A DNA stretch of 64,000 nucleotides, taken from positions 62,761 through 126,760 of the forward strand of contig JAHPZE010000010.1 of NCBI GenBank assembly GCA_019058365.1. The letters are read 5' to 3'. Shown here one piece after another: positions 5,169 through 30,149 of this stretch (position 1 is the stretch's first letter; each line of letters begins with the position of its first letter). The notes beneath the pieces were generated by a model. The model was not told the origin of the DNA. It was given only the letters and a program-made list of their open reading frames with translations, and made no database searches. A program made the translations under genes and the position numbers. Source of the DNA: Promethearchaeota archaeon (GTDB taxonomy: Archaea > Asgardarchaeota > Lokiarchaeia > Sigyniarchaeales > SOKP01).

Positions 5169-5942
5169 ATGAAAAATATATTTCTAATTTCTTCATTAGG
5201 GCTTTCTCCTGGGGTGATAACGGGCACGATTGATGCCCTTCAATATGGAGAATTAGGGGAATCGTATAATCCAAAGTTTATAGCTATCATAACGACGGAT
5301 AATGAGTTAACGAGTTTATCTTTAGAGGTGGTGGAATATAATATTCAAAAGCATAACCCGCACATCCAAATTTGCCCTTATATTATAAAAGGACTTTCTG
5401 ACATAAATATCATTGAGGATAACAATAAAGTTATGCGAGAGTTCGTTGCAGCCATAAAAGGGGGTGAGTTAATGAAAAAAAGAGACGCTGTAGAAGAAAT
5501 TCATGTGAATATAGCTGGAGGGCGGAAGATTATATCGGGACTTTTTGCTACCTTATCGAATATATTTCCCGTGGATATGGTTTATCATTTAATAACGACT
5601 CCTGAAATTGAGCAGCAGGGATTTATTAAGAATTTTTTAAGTTCGGATAATTCTATAAATATAGAGAAGTTAGATTCGGAAGCCAGTAAAGGGATTTTTC
5701 ATCCGAAAACGAAAAATCTGCCCACATTCTCGGTGGAAATTCCTATATTACATTCGATAAATTTTGATGATCTATTGGAGCTTTCATCCCAAATACTGAG
5801 TAATAAGGCAATATCTGACCATTATCTCATAAATTTAATGTTGTGACAAGGAATTTTAATAAGACAGGCGCATAATAAATATAAGGTCACACAGAAGGGG
5901 AGGGTATTATTTGATCTTTTCATTAACTATAAGAAGGTGTAA
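5169..5942 (+). pseudogene. CARF + wHTH protein with in-frame TGA at 5844-5846
   Basis: SLGLSPGVIT and NIAGGRK; the frame continues past TGA as QGILIRQAHNKYKVTQKGRVLF (wHTH wing) to TAA 5940-5942. Confidence 0.7.
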
Positions 5943-14397: not shown

Positions 14398-14666
14398 ATT
14401 TTTAATCACCTCTATTTTTGATTGGTTTTTATACACTTTTTAGAAATAATCTTTATTTTTGATCATTTAATATTTAGAGAAAACAAAATTTAAATCTTTA
14501 CTTTGATGTCCAAATGTCTATTATATCTATTAAGAATATAACCTAAATTAAAACCTAGAAAAGGTTGGACTATAATCTCTATTGTTCCATGAACGTTATC
14601 TAAATGATCATAGATATATTTACTCATATATTATATTTCTCTTTTAGTTGGGAATGGTATTTTATA

Positions 14667-14915
14667 TTACTCCTCTTTATTCAAGTTTGATACACATATA
14701 TAACCAAAGTCTGTTGAGGATTTTGGTTTTAATTCATCAAGGTTTACTATTTGAGTTCTATGTCCGCGATGTGTTTTCTCAAATTGCTGTAATAATTGTA
14801 TCGCTTCAAAATTATTAACATTAATAATGCAATATATATGGCAATCAAAATAAGCTCTCACTCTTACTTCTTTTAATTTATTATTAATCGAATTATTCAG
14901 AACCAATTTTATCAT
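14667..14915 (-). CDS. Hypothetical protein
   Basis: ORF only. Confidence 0.35.
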   Translation of the reverse strand: MIKLVLNNSINNKLKEVRVRAYFDCHIYCIINVNNFEAIQLLQQFEKTHRGHRTQIVNLDELKPKSSTDFGYICVSNLNKEE

Positions 14916-15010: not shown

Positions 15011-15667
15011 TTATTTAGAATCTAACTCAGAAAATAATTCTATGTGATTTTTTATAAAATTCCTAGTTCGGTGAGAGAACTTTTTTTCAAGCTTAGATTC
15101 ATCGTTAATATATTTTTTATAAACTAACCATTGTCCATAAAGCCATAAATATGAGTCTATCTCTTGATAAGAAGGTTTCCAACTTAAACTTACTATTAAA
15201 TCATCCAAATCTTTTTTAAATTGAGTATAATTGCTTTCATAACAGCTCTTCATGTTCCCTAAAAGATAACTCAGTGCATACCGTGAATATCTATCGTAAA
15301 TGGGAAATTTATTAGGGTAATGAAAATGACAATATTTACTTGAAAACACAAATCCAACCCGTCTTTTATAAGGTGAAGGCTGAATCTTTGCTATTTCTTC
15401 AACTAACTGTTCAAGGTTATTTTTATCGAATTTAGAATCAATTTCTAATTGCTGAATTTCATGGGCTATTAATCTCTTATCCATATTAAGATTACAATTA
15501 TATAATTTATTCACTAACTCTATTTTGTAGCCTATGTCATGAAAATCTTTATTTTCTTTCTTATTATTAAATTCACGCCTTAATAACTTGTTCACTTCAT
15601 TCCAACTAAGCATTTTATTCCTAATTTCTACTGCGGCCTCAATATTTTTTTGGTTAATCGTTTTCAT
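15011..15667 (-). CDS. HhH DNA-glycosylase-like protein
   Basis: FSSKYCHFHYPNKFPIYD and EIDSYLW resemble the HhH-GPD core. Confidence 0.5.
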   Translation of the reverse strand: MKTINQKNIEAAVEIRNKMLSWNEVNKLLRREFNNKKENKDFHDIGYKIELVNKLYNCNLNMDKRLIAHEIQQLEIDSKFDKNNLEQLVEEIAKIQPSPYKRRVGFVFSSKYCHFHYPNKFPIYDRYSRYALSYLLGNMKSCYESNYTQFKKDLDDLIVSLSWKPSYQEIDSYLWLYGQWLVYKKYINDESKLEKKFSHRTRNFIKNHIELFSELDSK

Positions 15668-15734: not shown

Positions 15735-16295
15735 CTAAGAATAATTTTCAATTTTCAGTATGGATCTCGTTAAAAATTCAAAAATCTGTTCAATATTTTC
15801 TCCAGTTTTAGAGGAACATTCGAAGTTTTTAACGATTTTATATTTTTTTGAGATTTTCTTAGCGTATTTTCTGGATATTACTCTTTCTTTATGGAGATCT
15901 AATTTGCCACCAACCATTAAGAGAGGAATTTTCTTTTTATCATTAGATAAATTATCTTTGAATAATGTTAACCATTTTTCTACGTTTTTTATACTGGAAT
16001 AATTAGTGATATCATACATAAAAATACCTCCTGATATACCCTTTATAAAAATTGGGAAAATAAATTGAAATTGAGGATCACTTCTAAGATTCCAAATTTG
16101 AAGTATAATTTTAGAAGAATTTATTGTTAAATTTTTAAGCGCAATATCTATGCATACTGGTGGCTTTACTTCCTTTTTTTGAATACCTGCTTGGGTTAAT
16201 GAAGTTTTTCCAACATTTCTTTCGCCAAAAATACATATTTTGAAGATTGAATCCTTGTTTATTTCTTGCACCTCCAATTTTTTAAAAGTTTCCAA
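15735..16295 (-). CDS. Rab/Ras-like small GTPase with degenerate switch motifs (copy 1)
   Basis: G1 GERNVGKTS, G4 GGKLD, G5 CSSKTG; G3 replaced by WNLRSDPQF. Confidence 0.85.
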   Translation of the reverse strand: METFKKLEVQEINKDSIFKICIFGERNVGKTSLTQAGIQKKEVKPPVCIDIALKNLTINSSKIILQIWNLRSDPQFQFIFPIFIKGISGGIFMYDITNYSSIKNVEKWLTLFKDNLSNDKKKIPLLMVGGKLDLHKERVISRKYAKKISKKYKIVKNFECSSKTGENIEQIFEFLTRSILKIENYS

Positions 16296-16402: not shown

Positions 16403-16474
16403 TTATAGGTGATTCTATAGAAGATCCTATATAACAATAAAATAGTCAAACATTTTGTATTTAAATCTTTACTT
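16403..16474 (-). promoter_or_regulatory. BRE/TATA (AAGTAAAGATTTAAA) plus three boxes at 12-bp period
   Basis: TTATAG 16403, CTATAG 16415, CTATAT 16427; promoter 16460-16474. Confidence 0.7.
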
Positions 16475-16644
16475 CTTTATTTTTTCTTTAAATTATTTTA
16501 ATATTATTGGTGATTTGCTTCATTTTCTATAATAGAAATACTAAAGTGATTAATTTAATAAAAGATAAATATCATAATATTATCTTATTTATAGTAAGAT
16601 TAAAAGCATAAAAATAGAATTTTAATTTAAGGAGTGTGAAATAA

Positions 16645-17187
16645 ATGTCAGAAGCAACAATTAATGAGGAATTTACTACTAAACTGAAAAATGAGCAATT
16701 TCTCTATTTTGCAGATAATTCTTATTTAGGAATTGCGTTAATCCAGAGAGGACATCTCATATATTCTAATACAAAATTTGGAGAAATCTTTGGCTATTCT
16801 CAAGAAGAGATCTCAAAATGGAAAAAGAGAGAATTCTATAACATTGTGCATCCTGAAGATTTAAAACATTTAGTAGAGACATTTAAGATTGAAAATGATA
16901 AAAGAACTATAACAATACGATTTAGAGGTATAAGGAAAGATAAAAGCATAATTAATATAGAAAATTATAATTGTCAAATTAAATATAATAATAAGTTTGC
17001 AGTTTTATCCAGTTATATTCCATTAGAAGAAACCTTTGAAGAAGAACCCTATACTCCTAAAATGATAAAGATAAAGAGAGAAAAAATAATTATATTGAAA
17101 TATCATTCAGATATAGAGAAACTCCTAAAAGATAGTAATCTGAAATTTGAAATTTATACCCATTCTTCATATCGAGAAGAAAATTAA
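16645..17187 (+). CDS. Single-PAS sensor with conserved C-terminal tail (module copy 1)
   Basis: N.KF.EIFGYS and IVHPED PAS motifs; paralog of 24877 and 28725. Confidence 0.85.
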   Translation: MSEATINEEFTTKLKNEQFLYFADNSYLGIALIQRGHLIYSNTKFGEIFGYSQEEISKWKKREFYNIVHPEDLKHLVETFKIENDKRTITIRFRGIRKDKSIINIENYNCQIKYNNKFAVLSSYIPLEETFEEEPYTPKMIKIKREKIIILKYHSDIEKLLKDSNLKFEIYTHSSYREEN

Positions 17188-17381
17188 TGTTCATTTTCTT
17201 GGATTTCTTCATTTTCTTTCGAGATTTCTTCAAAATGAACATTATATCTCTTTTCAGGATCAAGAACCTTATGCTTAATTAACGTTCTTGGGATATATAC
17301 GATTGTATCTGGTCCCATTGAGGCTAATTTTATATTCTCTAAGGTGAAGATTCTCTTCTCTCTATTCATACTTAATCGCAT
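17184..17381 (-). CDS. AbrB/SpoVT-like small DNA-binding protein (copy 1)
   Basis: KLASMGPDTIVYIPRTLIKHKVLDPEKRYNVHFEE swapped-hairpin pattern; three near-identical copies. Confidence 0.65.
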   Translation of the reverse strand: MRLSMNREKRIFTLENIKLASMGPDTIVYIPRTLIKHKVLDPEKRYNVHFEEISKENEEIQENEH

Positions 17382-18663
17382 TAAATTTCACTTTAAACAT
17401 TTTTTATTATATTTTATTGAGCTTTAAATATTTCCCTATAGAGGTTAATATTTTTACAAAACGACTTTAGTCATAAATTCGCATAGTATCATTCTTAATG
17501 TATTGATTATAATTATTCCTTTATATCTTTATCAAAATCTTTTATTTTTTTCTTAATTAAATTAGTAAATTAAAAATAATGTTATTATCTCCATTAAAAA
17601 ACGATGCTTTAGTTCCTATGATGGTTATGTTTATATATTTTCGAAAGAATGGAATGATAATAAATTGTAATCAGCAATATCGAGTCTTTGAAAATCTTCT
17701 CTTACCCCTAACGAACAATCTATTCAATTTCCTAATAAATTATGTCTTTTTCCCATATATTATAGTTATAATCTTGTTCTTGGTGTTCCTCCCAACTTAA
17801 TAGACACTCACTCTAATTTCCTTCAAATATATGAATCCATATAAGAATGTTATGATAGAGGGTTATCGTAACAAAAAATTTATATCATTTTATCAAGAAA
17901 AGAAGAAGAATAAAGAGTGAAGTTGTAATGGTGATTTTCATATTAAGGAACAGTGTAATAAACTTCTTTCATTATATCAGAAAATAATGGTTATTTTACA
18001 AGCCAAATCTTAATAATTCTATAATTTCATTACTATTTAAAGAAAAATTCTACTAAATATTGATAAAATCAGTCCTTTAAGATGGTAACATGCAAAGAGT
18101 TGCATAAGGATTTGCTTGACGGGACAATAATGACTATTAGTCGCATTCATAAGTATTTTGTGATTGTTGAAAATATCTATAAAAAGAAGAGGAATTATGA
18201 ACCGAGAAATAGTTATCGCTGGTGAATCAAAGAAAGAGAAAAAGACAGAGAAAAAAATGAATAACTGGAGAAGAATTAAGGAAGGAAACGATTATAGTTA
18301 TAACATTAAATGAGAAAGAAATATTACAATTTTTATCAGAAATATTTGACAATCCTAAGTAAGCATTGTAATTATCGATTTTTATAGAGTTCTTTTGACA
18401 TATTGCTTTAAAAAGATAACAAATTGCCGGTTAGGTAATATTTTCTCTATCTTAAACCAATACATAATTTTTAAATTATAAGAATTCTCCAGATTTTATT
18501 CTTATAAATCACTAATTTTTTCTGAAGTGAAGTAAAATAAATTTGCAGATTCAATTAATAGAATTAAAATTATGAAGAATTATAAGTTAAAATCGGTTTT
18601 AAGTAAATTTGAATTAATATATGGAGGAATTTACAGGTTAAAATGAGAATAATAAGAAAGGGA

Positions 18664-18783
18664 GACTCCTGCCAACAAGACGCAAAAACGCGTCGGAAAA
18701 ACAATATAGGGTAAGGAGGGCGAAATCAGAGTGTAAGAATTTACACTACCAAAAGACAAAAATCCAGGGTGTAGGCAGGAGTC
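18664..18783. ncRNA. Candidate 120-nt structured element (ncRNA or MITE)
   Basis: Perfect terminal inverted repeat GACTCCTGCC/GGCAGGAGTC; internal hairpins GACGC/GCGTC and AGTGTAA/TTACACT; GC-rich within an AT-rich gap. Confidence 0.45.
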
Positions 18784-18934
18784 ATTGTTTTCTATATAGA
18801 TTTAATATCTAGTTTACATGTTGCTATTATTGAAATTTATGAAAGATATGTGATTTAGAGTTTATATACTAATTCATAATCGTATTAATGTTTGATTTAA
18901 AGCACCTTTAATAATAGATTTTTGTAATTTCGTT

Positions 18935-19324
18935 TTAAATACATTTAAAGTAACTATTTACTTCTCCTTTGACTGCCTTTTCTATATTTTTTACCAGTTT
19001 TTTATTATCAAAGGGTTTTTTTATAAAACTTATTGCCCCAATCTCCTTGGTTATGTGTTCAATAGCCCAATCCGCACTTATAATTATAATTTTTGCTTTA
19101 TTATTAATTTGTAATATTTCTTTAGTTGCTTCAAGTCCATTTTTTAGCGGCATTTTATAATCCATGATGATGACATCTGGTTTTTTTGAAAATGATAGAT
19201 ATTTAATAACTGCTTCTTCTCCGTTCATTGCTTCATCTAAAATTTCAAACCCATTTGATTTTAATAATGAGTTGTAAAGTGTTAAAGTAGATAATTCATC
19301 CTCAACAAGAAATATGGTTGCCAT
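18935..19324 (-). CDS. Stand-alone CheY-like response regulator
   Basis: LVEDE, PDVIIMDYKMP.KNG, ISA and KPF motifs; likely ATG start at 19324 after a GGGGAG SD. Confidence 0.9.
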   Translation of the reverse strand: MATIFLVEDELSTLTLYNSLLKSNGFEILDEAMNGEEAVIKYLSFSKKPDVIIMDYKMPLKNGLEATKEILQINNKAKIIIISADWAIEHITKEIGAISFIKKPFDNKKLVKNIEKAVKGEVNSYFKCI

Positions 19325-19969
19325 TTTTCTCCCCTTATGAATGAAGCTGAAAAAGTCTAGACCGTTGGAATAGTAGTTTTTCATCTTTTTATATTATATT
19401 TCACATTTTTTACGTGTGTTATATCCCAAATCCTAGACTCTAAAAATAATCACATGAAATTATATATTCTTTCCTCAACCAAAAGAAATCAATTTTTTTT
19501 ATTAGACTATTGATTTTTTTGTCAAATAAAAAATAAGGCACATTTATTTTAAAATATTTTCATGAGGAAATGGTTTTCACGAATGTCCTGTGAAAAAATC
19601 GAAATTTATTTCAATAACTTTCTTAATTCTTTTATTAATAGAGTCTATTCTTTCAAGGGCTATTTCGAAACCATATTTGGATAAATATTGATTTTAAACT
19701 TTCAAAGAAATTATAGTTAAATATTCCCATATATTTTTTTTCGTTAGAAAATTGTTTATGTTAGCAAACCAATCTCTATTGTGATATATTTGAATTGGCG
19801 TGTTAGGTTTTTTATAAAAAATCTCTCCATAATTCGAATCTTTACTAAATAAAAATATACTTATAATAATCTCTTGGATATAATTTTTGTATTCCTAACG
19901 ATATTTTTTTACGATTAATCAATTTTACCCTCTTTTTTATCTAATTTATGATAAAGCGTAGTTGTATGT

Positions 19970-20200
19970 GTTTTTCTCTCTCTTCTTTTGTATCTTCCCA
20001 ATGCGTCTTAAGTTCTTTTTCTAAGGATACCATAAATTCACTTTTCTTTTTTGTCAATTTCCTTCTCCTTTTTTTTATTTTACTTTATTTTTATTGAATC
20101 TGAATTCTTACCCATAATATCAAGAATTAAAGTAGAAATAGGGATTTGTGAAATCTGTTTTATGATAAAACGAAGTACCTCAGAATTAGATTCTATCCCT
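19970..20200. repeat. ~230-bp near-identical copy of 26167-26397
   Basis: Direct alignment; contains the 3' half of an RHH gene and the start of a small ORF. Confidence 0.9.
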
Positions 20201-20703
20201 TCTATTTACAAAATCCCAAATGGGGTAATTTTGATCTCGTTATCCCTGTTGATGTTGAGGGAAGATAATAAAATTACCGTATCCAAAGCAAATATTAAAT
20301 ATTATATCCTTCCTGGAGGGATCCAAACATTTGATCCTATTACTTTTTTTGAAGATCAGGACCTAATAATTTCTTCTATCAACTAATTTTTCGCAGTTTT
20401 TTCTCTGTTTTTTTCATGAAGAAGCATAACATTCTAAGTATTAAATAATAAAGAGTATCGGCCTCCTATTATTATGTTCCTACACATATTCTATTATTAA
20501 TAGGAGTCTAAATAACAGTATCTAGAAAAAAACTTAATAGAAATTTTCAAAAGAACTTACAACCCTAACTCTCTCAATTTTCATCATTTTTCAAATGATT
20601 AAAATTGATCATTAGGTGACCAAAACTAATAAAAATACCCTTTCATTAAAAAATTACTTTATAAAATCTAGGTAATATAGAATTCTAATTTACAATAAAA
20701 ATA

Positions 20704-21018
20704 TTAACCAAACTTTCTCCGTACATCCCATAGATCAAGAGCTTCTTTTAAATCCTCATATTGTTTCGGTTCAAGATGACCTTGTAATTCAAATAATAAA
20801 CTTTGTATTAAAACTACTAATGATAACATTAGCCGACTGTCTATATTATGCATTTCAGCCTCCATAGAATCATAAATATTTGGGAAAAGTGTCTTATAGT
20901 TTTGCTTTATTTTTGATAATAATAGACTCTTAATTGTTGAATTCATCATTTCTGAATGTACGTGTTTAAGATATTGTTTTAATAATGCTAAAAAATCAAA
21001 TTTGTCCATAATTTCCAC
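20704..21018 (-). CDS. Hypothetical helical protein
   Basis: ORF with GAGGTG SD. Confidence 0.5.
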   Translation of the reverse strand: MEIMDKFDFLALLKQYLKHVHSEMMNSTIKSLLLSKIKQNYKTLFPNIYDSMEAEMHNIDSRLMLSLVVLIQSLLFELQGHLEPKQYEDLKEALDLWDVRRKFG

Positions 21019-21090
21019 CTCATTTTATTATTATATTTATATTTATAAACTAACTTAGTATAATGCGTTTTTTTTAAAAAAATAAAAAAA

Positions 21091-22038
21091 TTATTTTATT
21101 GGTGCCCCATATTTGGGGCAAAAAGCACTAATTTTGTCTAAAATCTCAACTCCACATGAGGAGCAATAAGTAATTTTTACCAATTCTTTTTCTTGTAATT
21201 TAACAGATTTGTCTTTAACAGGTGTATCTTTTTCAATCGATATAATTTCATTTGGAGTTCGTTTTCGGTATCTATAAATGAGAGCTATTGCAACAACTGA
21301 AGCAACACCTATAGAAGAAAAAATTAATAACCACCAAAATAATTGTACTCCAGAATTATCTGAATTACTAAGTGGTTCAATTTCGATAGTGAAGTAATCG
21401 CTAAATGTATAAATTGAATCATCGTAATAATCAGAGAGTTTAATTCGATAATTACTTCCATCATATGTATCACTTGAACTGAGATACCAAGAATAAGAGC
21501 CATCGTTATATTCCATAGTATCTATTACTTCTGAGAAAATAGCTCCTTTATATAATTCTATTCGCACATAATTTATATTCCCTGTTGTAGACCACGAGAT
21601 TTCATTATACCCATTATCAAAAGTATCTGTACTCTTTGGACTATATATTATAATACTCTTCGCATAAGTTATATCAAAGCTTATTTCAACAGTTTTTGAA
21701 GTAATAAGTGAGAATGTATTAGAAAAGTAAACTTTAAAATCATCATCATAAGGAGCATTAAAATGTATCGTTCCAGATATAACTCTACCATAATTTTCAA
21801 TTGTGTCTCCATTAGAATTTTTAATATAAAGATCAATATCTTTATTTCCTCCCGCAATTACTTCAAATTCAATTGTTAAAATGTCCCCTGCATTTAGATT
21901 GAACATGAAATAGAGATAACTTCCTGGGGGAATTGTCTCAGTATAATCAGGATCATCTATACCAATAGCTGAAATAATAAATGATGAACTAAATCCTAAA
22001 ACCATTGCCAATGTTAAGATTATATTTTTCTTTTTCAT
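21091..22038 (-). CDS. Secreted p24/TMED-type GOLD domain + Ig-like domain + TM + degenerate zinc ribbon
   Basis: Signal peptide; FEVIAGGNKDIDLYI and VYFSNTFSLITSKTV match the emp24/gp25L GOLD pattern; TM FWWLLIFSSIG; CSSC..CPKY. Confidence 0.7.
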   Translation of the reverse strand: MKKKNIILTLAMVLGFSSSFIISAIGIDDPDYTETIPPGSYLYFMFNLNAGDILTIEFEVIAGGNKDIDLYIKNSNGDTIENYGRVISGTIHFNAPYDDDFKVYFSNTFSLITSKTVEISFDITYAKSIIIYSPKSTDTFDNGYNEISWSTTGNINYVRIELYKGAIFSEVIDTMEYNDGSYSWYLSSSDTYDGSNYRIKLSDYYDDSIYTFSDYFTIEIEPLSNSDNSGVQLFWWLLIFSSIGVASVVAIALIYRYRKRTPNEIISIEKDTPVKDKSVKLQEKELVKITYCSSCGVEILDKISAFCPKYGAPIK

Positions 22039-22053
22039 ATCTTGATTTTTAAA

Positions 22054-23574
22054 TTAAAAATAAATATATTTTTTAATTTTAGTAATTAGACTAATTATTG
22101 AGAGAAACGATACAAGACCAAGCAATAATAATGGATATCCTATAATAACAGGTACCCTATTACCTCCAGGAGGAGGATAAGCAATATGTAAAATATTACT
22201 CCATTCTCCAATATTAGCATCTTCATTAGGATCTATTCCTATAGTATCTCTTGCTCTTATTTTATAATAATAATTTCCATATTCCATTTCAGTAAATTCC
22301 AATGACGTATAAGAAGATGTATTTGATTCTAACACCCAATATGTATCATAAATAGTGAAATTTTCTGATTCTGAAACTATCAACTCATAATCTTGAATCC
22401 CATTTAAATCTTCAGAATTCCACCATGTTACATACCAATTATCGACTGTATATATTGTTTCATTAATTAAACCCATCCATTCAATTTTCTCGGGAGGGTC
22501 ACAATCTCTTCCATTTATTATGAATAATCCATTAGTATCTCCCCAATAAACACCTAACTTATCATCTCTAAATTGCATATTTTGGGATTCTATTTTATCA
22601 GACCACATATTACCATTGGCTTCTGAAACTTTTGAATAGTAATGTATATCTGGGGAGCTATAATAATAGCTATAACGATAGATCATTGATGAACTACTCC
22701 AATAACCCCTTTCTAAAAAATAAATGTAATTTGCTGTACACCATACATCTTTAGGATAATCAAGATTTAAATAAATATAATCCACTAAAGTATTAGTATA
22801 GTCATACTGTACGATTTTTCCATCAGCATCATAATCATAATCATCATCCTGAGCATAAATAATATATTCTCGGCTAGTATCTAAAAAAGCACTTGTAATT
22901 CCAACATCGAAAATCATCGTTTTTATACTATCTGTTAAAGTATCATATAGATGAATTTCCGTAGAATTATAATATAAAACATATCTTTCACTATATTGAA
23001 CATCAATTACACCAAAAAAATCGGGACCAATATTTTCAATTATTTTATCATTTGAATTCCAGTAAAAAACATTGCTTGCTGTCCTCCATGCTAAATCAAT
23101 TCTTTCCCAACCAGGAATTTTAAAATATTCGACAGATAATTTTTGTGGTATCCAAGTAGAGGATACAACTTTTTGATATGTTAAAATAGATGTATTAAAT
23201 TTCATAATAGCATTATTATATTCTACTGTTGCTAAAAATATCAAATCTCCCTTGGGATCATAAACAGCATCAATATCGCAAACAACTCCAAGATTTCCCC
23301 TTACCAATAAAGGAGTAAATGGTTGACTATTTAGATTAACTCTATATATCGAACCATTATTAGTTGCGTTATAAAAATATAAATTATCATAACAAAGCTT
23401 GAAAATCCCATCTTTAGTTCCAGGTATATTCACTCCATAACTAATTCCATTAAAACTATTTGAATAAAGATCATTTTCATTGATCGTTTGAATCTCTTTT
23501 GGTTTATTAATATTAAAGCATATAGATAATGATAAAACTAATATTAACATTAAAATAATCTTTTTAAACCTCAT
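22054..23574 (-). CDS. Surface protein: beta-propeller + FnIII + Loki-CTERM-like anchor
   Basis: Signal peptide; YWTD-like blades; YYYKIRARD..GEWSN (FnIII); IIGYPLLLL..TM..KIKK. Confidence 0.7.
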   Translation of the reverse strand: MRFKKIILMLILVLSLSICFNINKPKEIQTINENDLYSNSFNGISYGVNIPGTKDGIFKLCYDNLYFYNATNNGSIYRVNLNSQPFTPLLVRGNLGVVCDIDAVYDPKGDLIFLATVEYNNAIMKFNTSILTYQKVVSSTWIPQKLSVEYFKIPGWERIDLAWRTASNVFYWNSNDKIIENIGPDFFGVIDVQYSERYVLYYNSTEIHLYDTLTDSIKTMIFDVGITSAFLDTSREYIIYAQDDDYDYDADGKIVQYDYTNTLVDYIYLNLDYPKDVWCTANYIYFLERGYWSSSSMIYRYSYYYSSPDIHYYSKVSEANGNMWSDKIESQNMQFRDDKLGVYWGDTNGLFIINGRDCDPPEKIEWMGLINETIYTVDNWYVTWWNSEDLNGIQDYELIVSESENFTIYDTYWVLESNTSSYTSLEFTEMEYGNYYYKIRARDTIGIDPNEDANIGEWSNILHIAYPPPGGNRVPVIIGYPLLLLGLVSFLSIISLITKIKKYIYF

Positions 23575-23615
23575 TTTTTACCTTTTTTGTCTAGAATTTT
23601 CAAATTTAAATATTT

Positions 23616-23695
23616 TTATAATATTTTTTATAAGGGATTCTATAAAAAACTCTATATAACTATCTAGTCCTCCAACAAAATATAAATCTTTACTT
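23616..23695 (-). promoter_or_regulatory. Same promoter plus four boxes at 12-bp period
   Basis: TTATAA 23616, TTATAA 23628, CTATAA 23640, CTATAT 23652; AAGTAAAGATTTATA at 23681-23695. Confidence 0.7.
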
Positions 23696-24040
23696 TTGTT
23701 CTCATCTTTTATAGAACTTTAAAAAATTGAAAAAGTAGGTCCTATCTCTTAAACTTGTCATTAAATTTAAATTCTAATTTATATTTATAAAAGAATTTCT
23801 CCATTTTTCTCTATCCACCACTTCTTCTTCATTTACAATTTGTACAGGATGACCGGAATGTGATGAATCAAATATTTTCAACTGATTTTGATTGATATAA
23901 TCATTTTCAATGATAGGTACATATTCATGACACTTGAAACATACTTTTAGTTTTATTTAATACACGTCCTTTAGATTTAATTACTAATTTGATTTTGTAC
24001 TAATTTTTAATTGGCCAGTATTAACAATTAAATTATAGTT

Positions 24041-24577
24041 CTAAATATAACCTCCAGAGTCCATCATTATTCTCGATAAAAATTTAAAAATTGTTTCAAC
24101 ATTTTCTCCAGTTTTAGAAGAACATTCAAAATGTTTAATGAATTTCAATTTTCTTGCTATTATCTTTGCTTTTCTTTGAGAAATTATTCTCTGTTCTTGG
24201 AGATCCATCTTTCCTCCAACTAGCAATAATGGAATTTTCTTTTCATCCTTGAATAAACTTTGTTTAAATATGGTAATCCAATTCTTTATATTCATTATAC
24301 TTGAATAATTAGTGATATCATACATCAAAATACCACCAGATGCGCCTCCAGTAAAAGAAGGGAAAAGAAACTTAAATTGAGGGTCACTCCTAAAAATCCA
24401 AATTTGAAGAGTAATTTTAACTGAATTTATGGTTAACTCTTTAATTGCAATATCTATACAGGTAGGTGGTTTTGTGTCTTTATTGAATATCTTATGAATC
24501 GCTTTTTGAATGAATGAGGTTTTTCCAACATTATTATCTCCAAAAAGACATATTTTGAAAATTAGATCTCTGCTAAT
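24041..24577 (-). CDS. Rab/Ras-like small GTPase with degenerate switch motifs (copy 2); probable ATT start
   Basis: Frame open from ATT 24577: ISRDLIFKICLFGDNNVGKTS..WIFRSDPQF..GGKMD..CSSKTG; AAGGTG SD 6 nt upstream. Confidence 0.8.
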   Translation of the reverse strand: MSRDLIFKICLFGDNNVGKTSFIQKAIHKIFNKDTKPPTCIDIAIKELTINSVKITLQIWIFRSDPQFKFLFPSFTGGASGGILMYDITNYSSIMNIKNWITIFKQSLFKDEKKIPLLLVGGKMDLQEQRIISQRKAKIIARKLKFIKHFECSSKTGENVETIFKFLSRIMMDSGGYI

Positions 24578-24689
24578 TTATAACACCTTATTAAGTTAAA
24601 TTCTTTCTATATCTTAATCAAAAAGAACAGGAGAATTTAATTTTAAACTATTACCCTTGCTTTCCCTTTATTATCACTTCAAAGTGATA

Positions 24690-24755
24690 TTATAGAATAT
24701 TCTATAAGGAACCCTATATAAAAATATAAAAAGAGATAGATTTAAATTTTTGTTT
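24690..24755 (-). promoter_or_regulatory. Promoter plus three boxes at 12-bp period
   Basis: TTATAG 24690, CTATAA 24702, CTATAT 24714; TTTAAA at 24741. Confidence 0.65.
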
Positions 24756-24876
24756 TTGTTCGTAAAGTGAGAACAACTTATAATTCTACAAAAATATATA
24801 AAACCACTTAAAAAATTATATTATTAGAGAAAATTTTAGACAAAATATCGCGTAAGAATATTTCAGAGTATAAACC

Positions 24877-25416
24877 ATGTCAGAAATCAAAGAAAATGAA
24901 GATTTTAGTACGAAATTAAAGGATGAGCAGTTTCTATATTTTGCAGATAATTCTAATCTGGGAATTCTGATAATTCAACAAGGCTATATAAAATATTATA
25001 ATCACAAATTTCCAGAAAGTTTTGGCTATTCTCCAGAAGAGATCTCGCAATGGAAAAAGAGAGAATTTTTCAAAATAATCCATCCTGACGATCTAAATCA
25101 ATTATTACAAAATCTTAATATTGAGGATGATAAGATGGTATCTTTTCGATTTAGAGCAATAACTAAATCACAGAGAATTGTTAACATAGAAGTTTATCTC
25201 TGTATAATACGATACAATAATGCAAGAGCCTATTTAATAAGCACTTCATCATTAGATGAAATCTCTACAGAAGAAGCATATCTTCCAAAAAAAATAACGA
25301 TAAATAAAAAGACAAAAATTATATTAGATTATCATTCAAATGTAGTTAAACTGTTAGATGACAATAATATAGCTTTTGAAATCATTAGAAATTGCTCATA
25401 TCGAGAAGAACAATAA
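24877..25416 (+). CDS. Single-PAS sensor with conserved tail (copy 2)
   Basis: FGYSPEE and IIHPDD motifs; paralogous tail KIILDYHSNVVKLL. Confidence 0.85.
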   Translation: MSEIKENEDFSTKLKDEQFLYFADNSNLGILIIQQGYIKYYNHKFPESFGYSPEEISQWKKREFFKIIHPDDLNQLLQNLNIEDDKMVSFRFRAITKSQRIVNIEVYLCIIRYNNARAYLISTSSLDEISTEEAYLPKKITINKKTKIILDYHSNVVKLLDDNNIAFEIIRNCSYREEQ

Positions 25417-25417
25417 G

Positions 25418-25600
25418 TTAATTTTCTGACCTCTTATTTGAGACTTCTTCGAAATGTACATTGTATATTTTAGTAAGATCAAGAACTTTATGCTTAATTA
25501 ATGCTCTAGGGATATATACGATTGTATCTGGTCCCATTGAAGATAATTTTACATTTTCTAATGTAAAGATTTTCTTCTCTTTTCTCATAAGGTATCGCAT
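25418..25600 (-). CDS. AbrB-like protein (copy 2)
   Basis: KLSSMGPDTIVYIPRALIKHKVLD. Confidence 0.65.
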   Translation of the reverse strand: MRYLMRKEKKIFTLENVKLSSMGPDTIVYIPRALIKHKVLDLTKIYNVHFEEVSNKRSEN

Positions 25601-26166
25601 TAAATTTGACTTTAAATATTTTACATTATATTTTATTGAACTTTAAATATTTGTATTAAAATAAAAATTTATAGAGTTCCCTATAGAATGAACTTTTATT
25701 TCCAATAGTATTTATTCCTATCTCAGATCCATCACACCATAGTATATGTTTTCTGATTTAGTGAAGTATTAAATAGTATTTTTCAATTTTTAATTATGGA
25801 ACTAATAATTTGACAAAAGCATCAATATAGGTGTAGAATTATATTAATAGAAATTGAATTTCCTAAAAAAATTTTCTATGGCAACAATCGAAAAAATAGA
25901 GAAAGAAAACAAGACGGATATTATTATTATATAAAAAAAATAGTTTTATTTTTCATTTATTCTACCTCTTTTAACTAACTAGTTCTAATTTATCTATAAT
26001 TTCTATTTTATTTCCTTTCCCATCAATTTTATATCTTCTTAATCCTTTTGGACTTTTCCCTTTTGAATAATCTATTAGCATTTTAATAAAACGTTTAAAT
26101 TCCTTTTCTTCTTTCATTTCAATTTACTCTTTTCATTTGATTTTTGAAGAAGTTTAGCTGTATGGG

Positions 26167-26397
26167 TTTTTTCTCTTTCTTCTTTTGTTTCTTCCCAATG
26201 CGTCTTAAGTTCTTTTTCTAAGGATACCATAAATTCACTTTTCTTTTTTGTCAATTTCCTTCTCCTTTTTTTTATTTTACTTTATTTTTATTGAATCTGA
26301 ATTCTTACCCATAATATCAAGAATTAAAGTAGAAATAGGGATTTGTGAAATCTGTTTTATGATAAACCGAAGTACCTCAGAATTAGATTTTATCCCT
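26167..26397. repeat. Source copy of the 19970-20200 duplication
   Basis: Direct alignment. Confidence 0.9.
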
Positions 26398-26486
26398 GAA
26401 GATTTTTTGATTTCTGAAAAGGGATGATATAGCGGGTCTTCTTGAGTAAGGGTAAGTCTTAGTTCAATATTTTCGTTAATAGTCAT
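26277..26486 (-). CDS. RHH-like regulator
   Basis: IELRLTL..FSEIKKSSGIKSNSEVLRFII beta-alpha-alpha pattern. Confidence 0.6.
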   Translation of the reverse strand: MTINENIELRLTLTQEDPLYHPFSEIKKSSGIKSNSEVLRFIIKQISQIPISTLILDIMGKNSDSIKIK

Positions 26487-26637
26487 ATTTTTACCTCTTT
26501 TATGCTAATTAATTTTTTTTTATCCAATTTTGTCATAAAAAAGATATTTTTTTATATATATAAATATTCGTGATAATTTAGGATAAATCTGGAGTAATTT
26601 ACAAAAAGTTATATTTTTCTCAAAATATAATATCTTT

Positions 26638-26835
26638 ATGGATAAACACAATGAAACTGAAGAAGAAATAGGTATTAGACTAAATCTTTCAAAAGAAGTA
26701 GATCAACCATTATATGATTATTTCCAACAAATAAAGAAAAATCTAGGCCTAAAAACCAATACAGAAGTAGCGAGGATATGTATAAAAAAAGCGTATGAAT
26801 ACTGGTTTAGTAAAGGGGATACAGAAATAATTTAA
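26638..26835 (+). CDS. RHH-like regulator (divergent paralog)
   Basis: IGIRLNL..FQQIKKNLGLKTNTEVARICI. Confidence 0.6.
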   Translation: MDKHNETEEEIGIRLNLSKEVDQPLYDYFQQIKKNLGLKTNTEVARICIKKAYEYWFSKGDTEII

Positions 26836-27052
26836 TTTTATTTAATTTTTTCCAATTTTTTTTAATTCCTCTTGGATTTCATTATCAGCCATAATAACAG
26901 TATTAATTTGTGATTTCAAATATCTAATACCTATTACTATTTAAATAATTTTTCTATAATACCGACATTTTTAAAATCTCTTTTTTTACTCTCAATCACC
27001 TCACCCTTTCTCTAGAGCTCAGAATTGTTTTATTTTAAAAAGTCTTATCTTC

Positions 27053-27673
27053 TTATTTTACAAGCTCTTTTAACTCAAAATAGATTTCATTGATTTTTTC
27101 TATATCCTCTGTGAGTTCCTCGTTATTGACGATATTTCTAATTCCTGATAAACCAATTTGATACTTACTCAATATGGTTATCAGATAGTTCATAGGATCA
27201 TCAAATCGGCATTCAATTTTTGCTAATTCAGATAGATTAAAGCTTCTCAAATTAGATATATGAAGCCTAATTATATCTACCAAATATCTTTCTTCTGTCC
27301 TTAGATCCCACTTTCCAAGAATACCAAATAATCGCTTATATTTACCACGTTCATTAAATTCCTTTAATACTCCTCTCAGCTCATAAATTTCTGATATTAA
27401 GGACATAATTCTCTCAATTATAATTCTTAAGTGTTCATTTCTTGCTTTCTTCTCTTTAATGTATTGAATATACAATATAATAAAAGGACTTAAAATTATA
27501 ATAAATTGGATTGTTTCAGTTAAATTAACAATGTTATGACCCCAATTCAAAATAATGAATATCCCAATGATCATTCCGATAAAAATAAATAATCCTAATG
27601 AATAAAAAACAAACCATCTTTTTAATTTTTTAAATATTACACGATAATTCTTTCTTTCGTTATTTATAACCAT
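27053..27673 (-). CDS. Two-TM membrane protein with cytoplasmic helical domain
   Basis: Two N-terminal hydrophobic segments. Confidence 0.55.
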   Translation of the reverse strand: MVINNERKNYRVIFKKLKRWFVFYSLGLFIFIGMIIGIFIILNWGHNIVNLTETIQFIIILSPFIILYIQYIKEKKARNEHLRIIIERIMSLISEIYELRGVLKEFNERGKYKRLFGILGKWDLRTEERYLVDIIRLHISNLRSFNLSELAKIECRFDDPMNYLITILSKYQIGLSGIRNIVNNEELTEDIEKINEIYFELKELVK

Positions 27674-27781
27674 AGTTTAATCATCATTCTTATATTGATT
27701 TTAGCTCTCTATTATTTAACCAATTATTAGTATTATCTCTAAATTTAAATGACTTTTTTACTTCTACTTGAAAAAAAAAAA

Positions 27782-28036
27782 TTATAGTTTTTGCGTTTCA
27801 TAATAAAATGAAACTAAGAAATATCCTCGTTTTTCTGTGTAAGTTGCCTTCTCCATTCCACATTCTTTTTTGATCGGATCATTCTCAGGAAGGGGAATTA
27901 TTAGAGGGGGAATATAGGTATGTTGAATAAATCTAATCTTTTTTTCCTTGTTTTCTAAAAGCCAATTATTAATTTTTAATTGAATATCATCCTCTAATCT
28001 TAACGTTAAGATTGTGTAACTCAACATTTTAATCAA
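27782..28036 (-). CDS. Hypothetical protein
   Basis: ORF overlapping the stop of the upstream gene. Confidence 0.45.
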   Translation of the reverse strand: MIKMLSYTILTLRLEDDIQLKINNWLLENKEKKIRFIQHTYIPPLIIPLPENDPIKKECGMEKATYTEKRGYFLVSFYYETQKL

Positions 28037-28511
28037 CTTTAATAAAGTAGACTTCTTGGATGAATTCTTCTATTTTTCTGATATCATCTCTTCTATTGAA
28101 GTGAAATTTCCAATCATCCCCATTAATCATGATATATCCGTATTGTTTTAGACCTTTTACAAGTAAGACAATCCCTATAATAATTAGAATAGGGCCTATC
28201 AGATATACCAGAGTAGATAAATTAACACTCAATGCAATCCCTACTGTTAAGAAGATTGCACCCAAAATTAAGAATAATTTATTTCTAGCGTGCCACGCAT
28301 TTTCGATATATGAGATTTTAGTAAGAGGTATATCTCGATAGATTCGGTCATACCCTTTCAACTTTTTAAAATGAAATATTCTTTTATTTGTAATCCCTAA
28401 AATATTCTGTTTAACTTTTTTCTGAGTAACAGAGCTAATTTCCCCCTTCGGTCCGATTTCCCATTTGAATAGAATCGATTCTTGATTATTTAAATAATTC
28501 TCTATTGACAT
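28029..28511 (-). CDS. PH-like domain protein with inserted TM hairpin
   Basis: LNNQESIL, LGITNKRIF and DIPLTKISYI PH pattern plus 2 TM; likely ATG 28511 after a GAGGT SD. Confidence 0.6.
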   Translation of the reverse strand: MSIENYLNNQESILFKWEIGPKGEISSVTQKKVKQNILGITNKRIFHFKKLKGYDRIYRDIPLTKISYIENAWHARNKLFLILGAIFLTVGIALSVNLSTLVYLIGPILIIIGIVLLVKGLKQYGYIMINGDDWKFHFNRRDDIRKIEEFIQEVYFIKVD

Positions 28512-28567
28512 ATTTATACCTCTTTTTATTTTTTGGTTACCAAATTTAAGTTTGATTTTCAATCTCT

Positions 28568-28635
28568 TTATAGAGTTCTCTATAGAAGGTAGTATAAATA
28601 AGAAGAATATTCCGTCAAAATATAAATCTTTACTT
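28568..28635 (-). promoter_or_regulatory. Same promoter plus three boxes at 12-bp period
   Basis: TTATAG 28568, CTATAG 28580, GTATAA 28592; AAGTAAAGATTTATA at 28621-28635. Confidence 0.7.
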
Positions 28636-28724
28636 TTATAAAAAGATTAAAATTAGATAGCAAATTATTATGTTCGGGAATAATGTAGACAAAAAATACT
28701 ACAAATCAGAAATGAGTGTAAGAA

Positions 28725-29264
28725 ATGTCAAAAGCAATAATAAATGAAGAATTTTCGACTAAACTAAGGAATGAAACATTACTTCATTTTGCCGAGAATT
28801 CAACTATAGGGGTTTTAATAATTCAGAGAGGATATTTACAATATTTTAACCAAAAATTTACAGAGATTTTTGGGTATACTAAAAAAGATATTCTACAATG
28901 GAAAAAAAGAGAATTCTATAAAATTGTTCATCCTGAAGATTTACCATACTTAATAGAATTCTTTAAGATTGAAACAGATAAAAAAACAGTATCAGTACGA
29001 TTTAGAGGGGTAAAAAAAGATAACCATATAATCGATATAGAGAATTATATGTGTTATATTAAATATAACAATAAAACAGCATGCTTATCAAGCTATATTT
29101 CTTTAGAAGAGTCCTTTGATGAAATCTATGTTCCTAAATTGAGCAAAAGAAAAATAGAAAAGAAAATCATATTAGATTATCATCCAGACATAGTTAAATT
29201 TTTAGGAGATAATACTATAAAATTCGAAATTATCAAATGTAGCTCATTTCGAGAAGAATATTAA
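28725..29264 (+). CDS. Single-PAS sensor with conserved tail (copy 3)
   Basis: EIFGYT and IVHPED motifs; tail KIILDYHPDIVKFL. Confidence 0.85.
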   Translation: MSKAIINEEFSTKLRNETLLHFAENSTIGVLIIQRGYLQYFNQKFTEIFGYTKKDILQWKKREFYKIVHPEDLPYLIEFFKIETDKKTVSVRFRGVKKDNHIIDIENYMCYIKYNNKTACLSSYISLEESFDEIYVPKLSKRKIEKKIILDYHPDIVKFLGDNTIKFEIIKCSSFREEY

Positions 29265-29449
29265 CCCTCTTTTTCATGATCCTCTCCAGATATCTCTTCA
29301 AAATGAACATTATATTTTTTTTCAGGATCAAGAATCTTATGCTTAATTAATGCACGGGGAATATAGACAATAGTATCTGGACCCATAGAAGCTAATTTTA
29401 CATTTTCTAACGTAAAAATATTCCTCTCTTTATTCATATTCTGTTCCAT
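29261..29449 (-). CDS. AbrB-like protein (copy 3)
   Basis: KLASMGPDTIVYIPRALIKHKILDPEK. Confidence 0.65.
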   Translation of the reverse strand: MEQNMNKERNIFTLENVKLASMGPDTIVYIPRALIKHKILDPEKKYNVHFEEISGEDHEKEG

Positions 29450-30149
29450 ATTGGATCACTTTAAATAATTTTTATTATATTTTATAGAACTTTAAATATA
29501 TTTTTTCAGATAGAGTTCTATAGGAGGCTCTATAGGGGACTTTAAACAATAATGTTAATGGTGTAAAGAATTAAGATTGAAATTGAAATACCTGATAAAG
29601 TATATAAATTCTTCAATGTTCGAGCTATCTTTAATAACAGAAAAATAAATGAAGAAATATCACAGTTTTTAGAAAAAGAATATGAAATCTTAAAAGATTT
29701 GTCATTTGATGAAGCTATAGCTTCTTAATTTTGTTTTTTATCTCTTTAGAATACTAAAAATCATAAGCTTTTTCAATAATAAATTTAATCACTTCTGCTG
29801 ATTTAATTGGAGAAAGAAAATCTTGTATCTCCTTAAGTTTTTTATAAATGGGGTTCCAAGATATCTGGTCATGATGCTGTTTATGGATAACTACAATCTG
29901 AAAATTAAGTTAATAGATTGCAGGCTAAATTTACTCTATCTAATTTTAAATTTGAAATGTAAAGCTCACTATTGCTCTTCTCCATATTTCAACTAAAAGT
30001 ATGATATATCCTTTTAAAATTCTTAGGTTGTGATTTAAGAATAATTTTTCAAAATAATGAAAGTTTAAAAACTAGGATATTATTTTCTTTATTAGACAAA
30101 AATGTAATAATGATTTTTATATTTTAATTTGAAAAAGTAGTTATTAAGG

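What the first reader, a model, noticed from the sequence alone, without database searches (positions are those of the whole stretch)
16403..29535. Operator arrays with exact 12-bp period define a predicted regulon
Seen: YTATAR-like boxes at 16403/15/27, 23616/28/40/52, 24690/702/714 and 28568/80/92. Each array begins 22-28 nt downstream of a shared minus-strand BRE/TATA (AAGTAAAGATTTAWA), i.e. over the expected start site. The same boxes lie upstream of the AbrB-like genes' TATA (17436; 25669/81; 29518/30). Known: AbrB-family proteins bind phased AT-rich sites cooperatively. Inference: repression of two GTPases, the propeller/GOLD operon and the PH-like protein, plus autoregulation.
Basis: partly seen in the sequence, partly recalled or inferred. 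Interest (0 to 1): 0.75.

Follow-up and report, generated by a model that had tools for sequence, protein, structure and literature searches.

The report
Phased operator boxes beside Asgard GTPase genes
In an Asgard archaeon, short palindromic boxes spaced exactly 12 bp apart lie over the predicted start sites of Ras-like GTPase and other membrane-protein genes and upstream of a 58-residue barrel protein gene, and this layout is kept across related genomes, so the boxes are probably the binding sites of that protein.

Summary
YTATAR boxes (fuller consensus Y-CTATAG-R) sit at an exact 12-bp period at all four stated arrays. The only flaw is that the third box of array 4 is GTATAA. One or two boxes lie upstream of each small gene.

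- **Significance:** the loose triplet pattern is not enriched genome-wide (6 hits against 9 for a reversed control). A matrix trained only on other genomes still puts its five best three-unit hits in this 4.74-Mb genome inside the 13-kb interval.
- **Period:** in 195 kb of homologous loci, box-to-box distances peak at 12 (45 pairs), 24 and 36, against 0-6 elsewhere.
- **Conserved layout:** Ras-like GTPase, then array, then PAS gene, then a convergent small gene with its own box pair. This recurs in several genomes, although the intergenic sequence is otherwise unalignable.
- **The small protein:** it is not a Pfam AbrB/MazE member. A natural tandem-duplicated relative folds as a cradle-loop barrel (PhS018 and PG0164, Z 9.3-9.7), the metafold that contains AbrB.
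- **Likely binder:** boxes also flank solo small genes in genomes with no cassette PAS gene, which points to the small protein.

Repression and autoregulation are inferred from position only. No RNA or binding data exist. The regulon is local to this cluster, not genome-wide. I rate it a new variant of a known kind, closest to MraZ and MetJ phased operators.

The parts
16403..16434 (.). Array 1: three boxes at a 12-bp period (TTATAG, CTATAG, CTATAT)
   Evidence: Read. Matrix score 27.7 against a best control of 20.0. Orthologous arrays in G015, G018 and G020.
16458..16474 (-). Predicted BRE/TATA (GTAAAGA + TTTAAATA) driving GTPase 1; predicted start near 16435 at the edge of the first box
   Evidence: Assigned by fit to the general archaeal BRE/TATA consensus (inference).
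15735..16295 (-). Ras-family small GTPase 1. It is followed on the same strand by a 218-aa ORF (15011-15667) and an 82-aa Cys/His-rich ORF (14667-14915).
   Evidence: Pfam Ras 1.4e-28. Relatives of the 82-aa ORF follow the GTPase in other genomes.
16645..17187 (+). PAS protein 1 (180 aa): one PAS domain plus a conserved tail of about 45 aa
   Evidence: PAS_3 9e-11. Tail alignment.
17184..17369 (-). Small barrel protein 1. The likely true start is the conserved Met at 17369. Its stop overlaps the stop of PAS 1.
   Evidence: most homologues start at this Met.
17436..17441 (.). Single CTATAG box upstream of the promoter of small gene 1
23616..23657 (.). Array 2: four boxes at a 12-bp period
   Evidence: Matrix scores 27.3 and 21.9.
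23680..23696 (-). Predicted BRE/TATA for the 506-aa surface protein, GOLD-domain protein and 104-aa ORF operon (20704-23574)
   Evidence: GOLD 1e-12.
24041..24577 (-). Ras-family GTPase 2: open frame, but no ATG/GTG/TTG near its N-terminus
24690..24719 (.). Array 3: three boxes at a 12-bp period. A TATA (TTTAAAT, 24740-24747) follows, with a different BRE.
   Evidence: Matrix score 31.0, the best in the genome. G008 has the orthologous array.
24877..25416 (+). PAS protein 2
25418..25588 (-). Small barrel protein 2
25669..25686 (.). Box pair (TTATAG, CTATAG) 12 bp apart, upstream of small gene 2
28568..28597 (.). Array 4: two good boxes plus a degenerate third (GTATAA)
   Evidence: Matrix score 21.7.
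28620..28637 (-). Predicted BRE/TATA for the 177-aa membrane protein with a weak bacterial-PH match and two downstream ORFs (27053-28562)
28725..29264 (+). PAS protein 3
29261..29437 (-). Small barrel protein 3 (58 aa from the conserved Met)
29518..29535 (.). Box pair CTATAG/CTATAG 12 bp apart, upstream of small gene 3. A further CTATAA lies 36 bp on, next to the proximal TATA.

Best explanation
The boxes are operator sites. Each is a short palindrome, roughly YY-CTATAG-RR, repeated two to four times at a rigid 12-bp centre-to-centre distance.

The most likely binder is the 58-residue protein encoded in the same cassette. I predict that it pairs into a small cradle-loop beta-barrel and that neighbouring dimers touch each other along the DNA, which would explain why no 11- or 13-bp spacing is seen.

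At the GTPase, surface-protein/GOLD and PH-like promoters the array begins at the predicted transcription start, just after the BRE/TATA. Bound protein there should block RNA polymerase, giving repression. At its own gene the pair lies about 55-70 bp upstream of the TATA, with one more box next to the BRE. This implies autoregulation of unknown sign.

The stand-alone PAS protein encoded tail-to-tail with the small gene is proposed to be the signal sensor that modulates the small protein.

Shown here: the boxes, their period, their conservation and their linkage to the small gene. Inferred: start sites, which protein binds, repression, and the PAS role.
For: - **Period:** exact 12-bp period with harmonics at 24 and 36 in 195 kb of cassette loci from about 12 genomes. 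The reversed control is flat.
- **Specificity:** a matrix trained on other genomes picks this interval as the top five hits of the genome.
- **Selection:** paralogous cassettes are only 70-74% identical in coding DNA. Their intergenic regions do not align, yet boxes and TATA persist.
- **Linkage to the small gene:** 12 of 36 non-redundant upstream regions of family members hold a strict pair at exactly 12 bp. Expected values are 1.5 for random windows and 0.16 for shuffles. No other spacing is enriched.
- **Triplets in relatives:** those in G001, G008, G012, G014, G015, G016 and G018 lie within about 3.5 kb of a small-gene homologue.
- **Another genus:** G193 has two divergent family genes with 3+3 boxes between them.
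- **Solo genes:** solo small genes keep the boxes. Five such genomes have no cassette-type PAS gene.
- **Rival binders:** the RHH genes in the window are not co-conserved.
- **Fold:** the tandem relative P0126 has core pLDDT about 90. It matches PhS018 (Z 9.3) and PG0164 (Z 9.7), and the next match is 6.4. PhS018 is treated as kin of AbrB-like DNA binders in PMC4333400.
Against: - No binding, start-site or expression data exist; no RNA run was listed.
- The monomer model is poor (pLDDT 58.6).
- There is no significant sequence link to any known DNA-binding family.
- G020 keeps an intact array and GTPase without a detectable small gene (92% complete). G023 has a triplet with no family member nearby.
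- The loose triplet pattern is not enriched genome-wide.
- The boxes are TATA-like and palindromic, so another factor or weak RNA hairpins cannot be excluded.
Confidence: 0.6

Rival explanations
1. The boxes are operators, but for another factor. Candidates are the PAS protein through its conserved 45-aa tail, or an unlinked regulator. On this reading the small gene is just one more target.
For: The PAS tail is strongly conserved. G020 and G023 carry arrays without a detectable small gene. The small protein has no sequence link to a known DNA binder.
Against: The only gene always next to the boxes is the small gene. Solo small genes keep boxes in genomes with no cassette PAS gene. The PAS tail shows no profile similarity to the small family or to AbrB proteins. 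The RHH genes are not co-conserved.
Confidence: 0.17
2. The boxes are core-promoter elements: extra or decoy TATA boxes, or an initiator region read by TBP/TFB paralogues. They are not repressor sites.
For: The core is TATA-like. The box nearest the TATA is always CTATAT(A), a fair TATA. All arrays lie in promoter regions.
Against: The conserved flanking C and G, the palindromic Y/R flanks and the rigid 12-bp period are not properties of TATA boxes. The genome's evident TATA boxes read TTTAWAT. The arrays are confined to this cassette family.
Confidence: 0.08
3. The arrays act in RNA, as 5'-leader hairpins formed by neighbouring self-complementary boxes. Alternatively they are merely inherited remnants of segmental duplication with no function.
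For: Arrays downstream of the TATA would be transcribed. The leaders fold weakly, with z-scores of -0.7 to -2.8. The cassettes are paralogues.
Against: The boxes at the small genes lie upstream of the TATA and would not be transcribed. The predicted pairings differ between arrays. At 70-74% coding identity the rest of the intergenic DNA is unalignable while boxes and period persist across genera, so neutral inheritance does not fit.
Confidence: 0.05

Closest known systems
MraZ and its phased repeats at the dcw promoter
   Same: A protein of the AbrB/MazE/MraZ barrel superfamily binds three or more short repeats at a fixed period at a promoter and autoregulates. The Mollicutes site is (AAAGTGKN3)3, bound by one octamer (PMC5282649).
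   Different: The period here is 12 bp, not 10. The boxes are palindromes, not direct repeats. The protein is a single half-barrel of 58 aa, not a tandem duplication. It is archaeal, has no dcw context and shows no sequence similarity.
AbrB / SpoVT / MazE (Pfam PF04014) swapped-hairpin regulators
   Same: Small beta-alpha-beta half-barrels that dimerise, bind AT-rich promoter DNA cooperatively (AbrB at phyC, bioRxiv 10.1101/2024.08.12.607668) and autoregulate. A similar G..(I/V)xIP..hR motif appears in the aligned register.
   Different: There is no PF04014 match and no significant profile similarity. AbrB has no strict box or period. There is no toxin partner, unlike MazE or VapB.
PhS018 (2glw) and PG0164 (2d9r) single-chain cradle-loop barrels
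   Same: These are the best structural matches to the tandem-duplicated relative (Z 9.3 and 9.7). PhS018 is described as an archaeal intermediate between swapped-hairpin and double-psi barrels (PMC4333400, PMC11258233).
   Different: Both are single chains of unknown function. The window's protein is one half and would have to homodimerise.
MetJ met-box arrays (from my own knowledge, not checked here)
   Same: Two to five abutting palindromic boxes at a rigid period over a promoter, read by dimers that contact each other.
   Different: MetJ has a ribbon-helix-helix fold, an 8-bp period, is bacterial and uses the corepressor SAM.

Membership tests
SpoVT/AbrB/MazE (Pfam PF04014) | Match to the family HMM above its cut-off | tested here: not met
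   No hit at E<=0.1 for the window's proteins. A genome-wide scan finds 9 other PF04014 loci but none of the four small genes.
SpoVT/AbrB/MazE (Pfam PF04014) | Significant profile-profile similarity to bona fide members | tested here: not met
   hhalign probability 1.5%, E 0.034. This equals the negative control, PAS N-terminus against the small family, at E 0.045.
Cradle-loop barrel metafold (swapped-hairpin / RIFT) | Duplicated beta-alpha-beta element forming a small barrel | tested here: met
   Shown for the natural tandem relative P0126. Each repeat is strand-strand-strand-helix-strand with pLDDT about 90. Z is 9.7 and 9.3 to 2d9r and 2glw, clearly above the rest. It is not shown for the 58-aa protein itself, whose monomer model has pLDDT 58.6.
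Cradle-loop barrel metafold (swapped-hairpin / RIFT) | Homodimerisation of the single-repeat form | not testable with these tools
   No multimer prediction was available. It is implied only by the tandem-duplicated relatives P0119, P0125 and P0126.
MraZ-type phased operator | Three or more short repeats at a fixed period at the regulated promoter | tested here: met
   Three or four boxes at exactly 12 bp.
MraZ-type phased operator | Tandem two-domain MraZ protein encoded first in a dcw cluster | tested here: not met
   The protein has a single 58-aa domain. Its neighbours are PAS and Ras-like genes.
Toxin-antitoxin module with AbrB-fold antitoxin | Co-transcribed toxin gene next to the small DNA-binding gene | tested here: not met
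   The small gene stands alone and converges on a PAS gene. There were no PADLOC or NCBIfam hits.
Archaeal repressor operator | Site overlapping or just downstream of the TATA and transcription start | tested here: inconclusive
   The position fits a predicted BRE/TATA 20-26 nt from the last box. No start-site data exist.

The most novel reading that the evidence does not exclude
A lineage-specific signal switch in Asgard archaea. A stand-alone PAS sensor would gate a 58-residue homodimeric cradle-loop-barrel repressor. That repressor would polymerise on 12-bp-phased palindromes and so control eukaryote-like trafficking genes (Ras-like GTPases, a GOLD-domain membrane protein, a PH-like protein). 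This would be the first defined transcription circuit for eukaryotic signature genes. It would also be a natural homodimeric form of a barrel type said to survive only as single chains (PMC11258233).
Probability: 0.3. Interest if true: 0.75.

Novelty: new variant of a known kind. Interest (0 to 1): 0.58.

Why it matters
How Asgard archaea regulate their eukaryote-like genes is almost unknown. Here a 58-residue protein and 30-45-bp DNA sites give a concrete pair that can be tested at the bench. The targets include Ras-like GTPases and a GOLD-domain protein. The protein family has no Pfam or NCBIfam model and is confined to one order, found in 47 of 400 phylum genomes searched. It may also be a living homodimeric member of the ancient cradle-loop barrels. 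The rigid 12-bp period is unusual and implies a defined protein-protein lattice on the DNA.

Tried and rejected
- **RNA evidence:** no RNA holder was listed for window 21000-30000, so no start site could be mapped.
- Contexts of the most distant family members came only from the genome search.
- **Monomer structure:** the prediction was unusable.
- **Sequence searches:** PDB, Pfam, NCBIfam and PADLOC gave nothing for the small protein. The ESM Atlas gave only a weak lead: a cluster in which 17% of members carry PF04014, score 0.84.
- **PAS tail as a half-barrel:** hhalign gives probability 0.2%. I reject it as unsupported, but it is not excluded structurally.
- **RHH proteins as binder:** rejected because they are not co-conserved.
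- **Box and protein co-variation:** GTATAC boxes in one subfamily and CTATGA boxes in another. Only 2-3 loci each are known and the spacing is inconsistent, so this stays anecdotal.
- **Other scans:** the bacterial promoter and terminator scan is at chance and irrelevant for an archaeon. No Rfam family was found. Leader RNA folds are weak and inconsistent.
- **Extra candidates elsewhere in the genome:** C26:9121, C16:280757 and C21:70035 score at or near control level and were not pursued.
Full report
**Setting.** The window is G000:C24:62761-126760 of a 4.74-Mb, 54-contig genome with 29.5% G+C. Homologues of its proteins are named by their sources as Promethearchaeota and other Asgard archaea. 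The 16-30 kb interval holds three paralogous cassettes.
- Each cassette has a 180-aa PAS protein on the plus strand: 16645-17187, 24877-25416 and 28725-29264.
- Each also has a convergent 60-65-aa ORF on the minus strand: 17184-17381, 25418-25600 and 29261-29449.
- A fourth, solo copy of the small gene lies at C29:33462-33629.
- Divergent from the PAS genes lie two Ras-family GTPases (15735-16295 and 24041-24577) and a 177-aa membrane protein with a weak bacterial-PH match (28029-28562).
- A further array precedes an operon that encodes a 506-aa surface protein and a GOLD-domain protein.

**The observation.** Reading the sequence confirms every stated box except one: the 28592 box is GTATAA. 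On the minus strand each array follows a TATA/BRE by 20-26 nt. Arrays 1, 2 and 4 share AAGTAAAGATTTAWA. Array 3 has TTTAAAT with a different BRE. That 15-mer occurs five times in the genome. Four are in this window, including one at 14503 that has no boxes.

**Is it more than chance?**
- The loose pattern YTATAR-N6-YTATAR-N6-YTATAD gives only 6 strand hits in the genome, 5 of them here. The reversed, uncomplemented control gives 9. Genome-wide enrichment of the loose pattern therefore fails as an argument.
- I then trained a 12-mer matrix only on arrays from other genomes and scanned G000 for three consecutive units. The five best hits all fall in the interval: 31.0, 27.7, 27.3, 24.7 and 23.5. 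The best control score is 20.0.
- In 195 kb of homologous loci from about a dozen genomes, distances between YTATAR boxes show 45 pairs at exactly 12 bp, 12 at 24 and 12 at 36. Every other distance has 0-6 pairs, and the reversed control is flat.
- The flanks are biased to Y before and R after the box, so the unit is a palindrome of 8-10 bp with a 2-4-bp gap.

**Conservation.**
- The order GTPase, array, PAS gene, small gene, box pair recurs in G008, G012 (twice), G015 and G018. Parts of it recur in G002 and G014.
- Within the window the cassettes share 70-74% DNA identity across the genes. The alignments stop before the arrays.
- Anchoring on the TATA shows the boxes and the TATA/BRE as the only conserved islands.
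- Upstream of the small gene, nearly every homologue has a pair CTATAR-N6-CTATAG. It is followed by a conserved TTTAAAG-TT-CTATAAAATATAAT block and a proximal TTTAAA 23-28 nt before a conserved Met.
- That Met is residue 5 of the annotated ORF and is the first residue of most homologues. The gene is therefore probably 58 codons long and nearly leaderless.
- Among 36 non-redundant upstream regions of family members, 12 carry a strict pair at 12 bp, against 1.5 expected in random windows and 0.16 in shuffles. No other spacing is enriched.
- In another genus (G193), two divergent family genes flank 3+3 boxes at 12 bp.

**Who binds?**
- The one gene always found beside the boxes is the small gene.
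- Solo small genes carry pairs upstream (C29, G001, G005, G014, G016). In three of these genomes (G001, G014, G016) there is also a triplet just downstream, in front of unrelated genes.
- Five such genomes have no cassette-type PAS gene. Their best PAS hits are about 30-34% identical, apart from one short broken fragment at 47%, and lie inside multi-PAS proteins of 500-1400 aa.
- Two RHH-like genes in the window (26277-26486 and 26638-26835) do not recur at other loci.
- Against this reading, G020 keeps an intact GTPase array with no detectable small gene, and G023 has a triplet with no family member nearby. Both assemblies are incomplete.

**What is the small protein?**
- It has no Pfam, NCBIfam, PADLOC or PDB sequence match.
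- The family is small and narrow. It has 113 clusters at 90% identity and 24 representatives among 1.84 billion proteins. It is present in 47 of 400 phylum genomes, all within one order.
- The genome has nine true PF04014 loci, and none of them is one of these genes.
- Profile-profile comparison with those proteins aligns the expected G..IP motif but at probability 1.5%, the same as a negative control.
- The monomer model failed.
- Several distant relatives are natural tandem duplications. One of them, P0126, folds with core pLDDT of about 90. It forms two strand-strand-strand-helix-strand repeats.
- Its best structural matches are PG0164 (2d9r; Z 9.7, rmsd 2.2 Å over 81 residues) and PhS018 (2glw; Z 9.3). 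The next match scores 6.4.
- PhS018 is the RIFT-type cradle-loop barrel discussed as kin of AbrB-like DNA binders (PMC4333400, PMC11258233).
- 'AbrB-like' therefore holds only at the metafold level, and only by proxy.

**Mechanism proposed.** Dimers of the 58-aa protein each read one palindrome. Lateral contacts fix the 12-bp register. An array starting at about +1 occludes polymerase at the GTPase, surface/GOLD and PH-like promoters. The pair at about -95/-83, plus the box beside the BRE, autoregulates the small gene. The PAS protein supplies the signal. Only the cis-architecture and its linkage are shown; the rest is inference. The sign of autoregulation is open, because archaeal factors bound upstream of the BRE often activate (my own knowledge).

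**Rivals.**
- Another binder, either the PAS tail or an unlinked factor, remains possible.
- Core-promoter or decoy-TATA roles fit poorly with the conserved C/G flanks and the rigid period.
- An RNA role fits poorly because the boxes at the small genes are not transcribed and the predicted folds are weak and inconsistent.
- Neutral inheritance is contradicted by the pattern of divergence.

**Comparison with known systems.** The closest working analogue is MraZ: same superfold, three repeats at a fixed 10-bp period, bound by one oligomer (PMC5282649). MetJ met-box arrays are similar in logic (my own knowledge). Cooperative multi-tetramer binding by AbrB is reported in bioRxiv 10.1101/2024.08.12.607668. 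Literature searches found no description of this family, these boxes or any operator for Asgard GTPase genes.

**Earlier notes in this scan.** Other first-stage readers noted the same cassette, boxes and GTPases, so the scan had seen this stretch before.

**Verdict.** This is a real, conserved and statistically robust cis-element tied to a new small-protein family. The regulon is local. The regulatory reading is plausible but untested.

Noticed in passing
window 24041-24577 (-): GTPase 2 has an open frame through the P-loop but no ATG/GTG/TTG near its N-terminus. An ATT follows an AAGGTG Shine-Dalgarno-like site directly after an in-frame stop. It either uses a non-canonical start or is a decaying gene.
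   Followed up: partly
window 17184-17187, 29261-29264, 25416-25418: The PAS and small genes converge with overlapping or abutting stop codons. The tail-to-tail layout, with gaps of about 8 to 40 nt, is kept in all related loci. This suggests overlapping 3' ends or transcriptional interference.
   Followed up: partly
window 15735-16295 and 24041-24577: Both Ras-family proteins read W-x-x-R-S-D-P-Q-F where the DxxGQ switch II motif is expected. They may be atypical or pseudo-GTPases.
   Followed up: no
window 14667-14915 (-) and 23765-23956 (-): An ORF of about 80 aa, rich in Cys and His, follows the GTPase on the same strand. Relatives do the same in G008, G012, G015 and G018. In G012 it has its own box triplet 30 nt upstream.
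   Followed up: partly
window 26277-26486 (-), 26638-26835 (+); 19934-20200 vs 26130-26397: Two divergent genes whose products look like ribbon-helix-helix proteins by eye. Neither is found at related cassette loci. A 268-bp segment that overlaps one of them is duplicated at 94% identity 6 kb away.
   Followed up: partly
window 14489-14503 (-): A fourth copy of the promoter 15-mer AAGTAAAGATTTAAA with no boxes after it. Its target gene was not identified.
   Followed up: no
window 18646-18785: An element of about 140 nt with 82-96% identical copies on contigs C9, C37, C54 and C46. No Rfam match.
   Followed up: no
P0119, P0125, P0126, P0130, P0131, P0133: Natural tandem duplications of the 58-aa domain in one chain. 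They are useful as a proxy for the dimer and may interest people studying barrel evolution.
   Followed up: partly
L107 (G193:C37:4973-8122), about 1657-1780: Two divergent members of the small family with two box triplets at a 12-bp period between them. This is the clearest array outside the genus.
   Followed up: partly
L068 (G020:C38) 5528-5900: The orthologous GTPase, array and TATA are intact, but the PAS and small genes are replaced by unrelated sequence. No family member was found in this 92%-complete assembly.
   Followed up: partly
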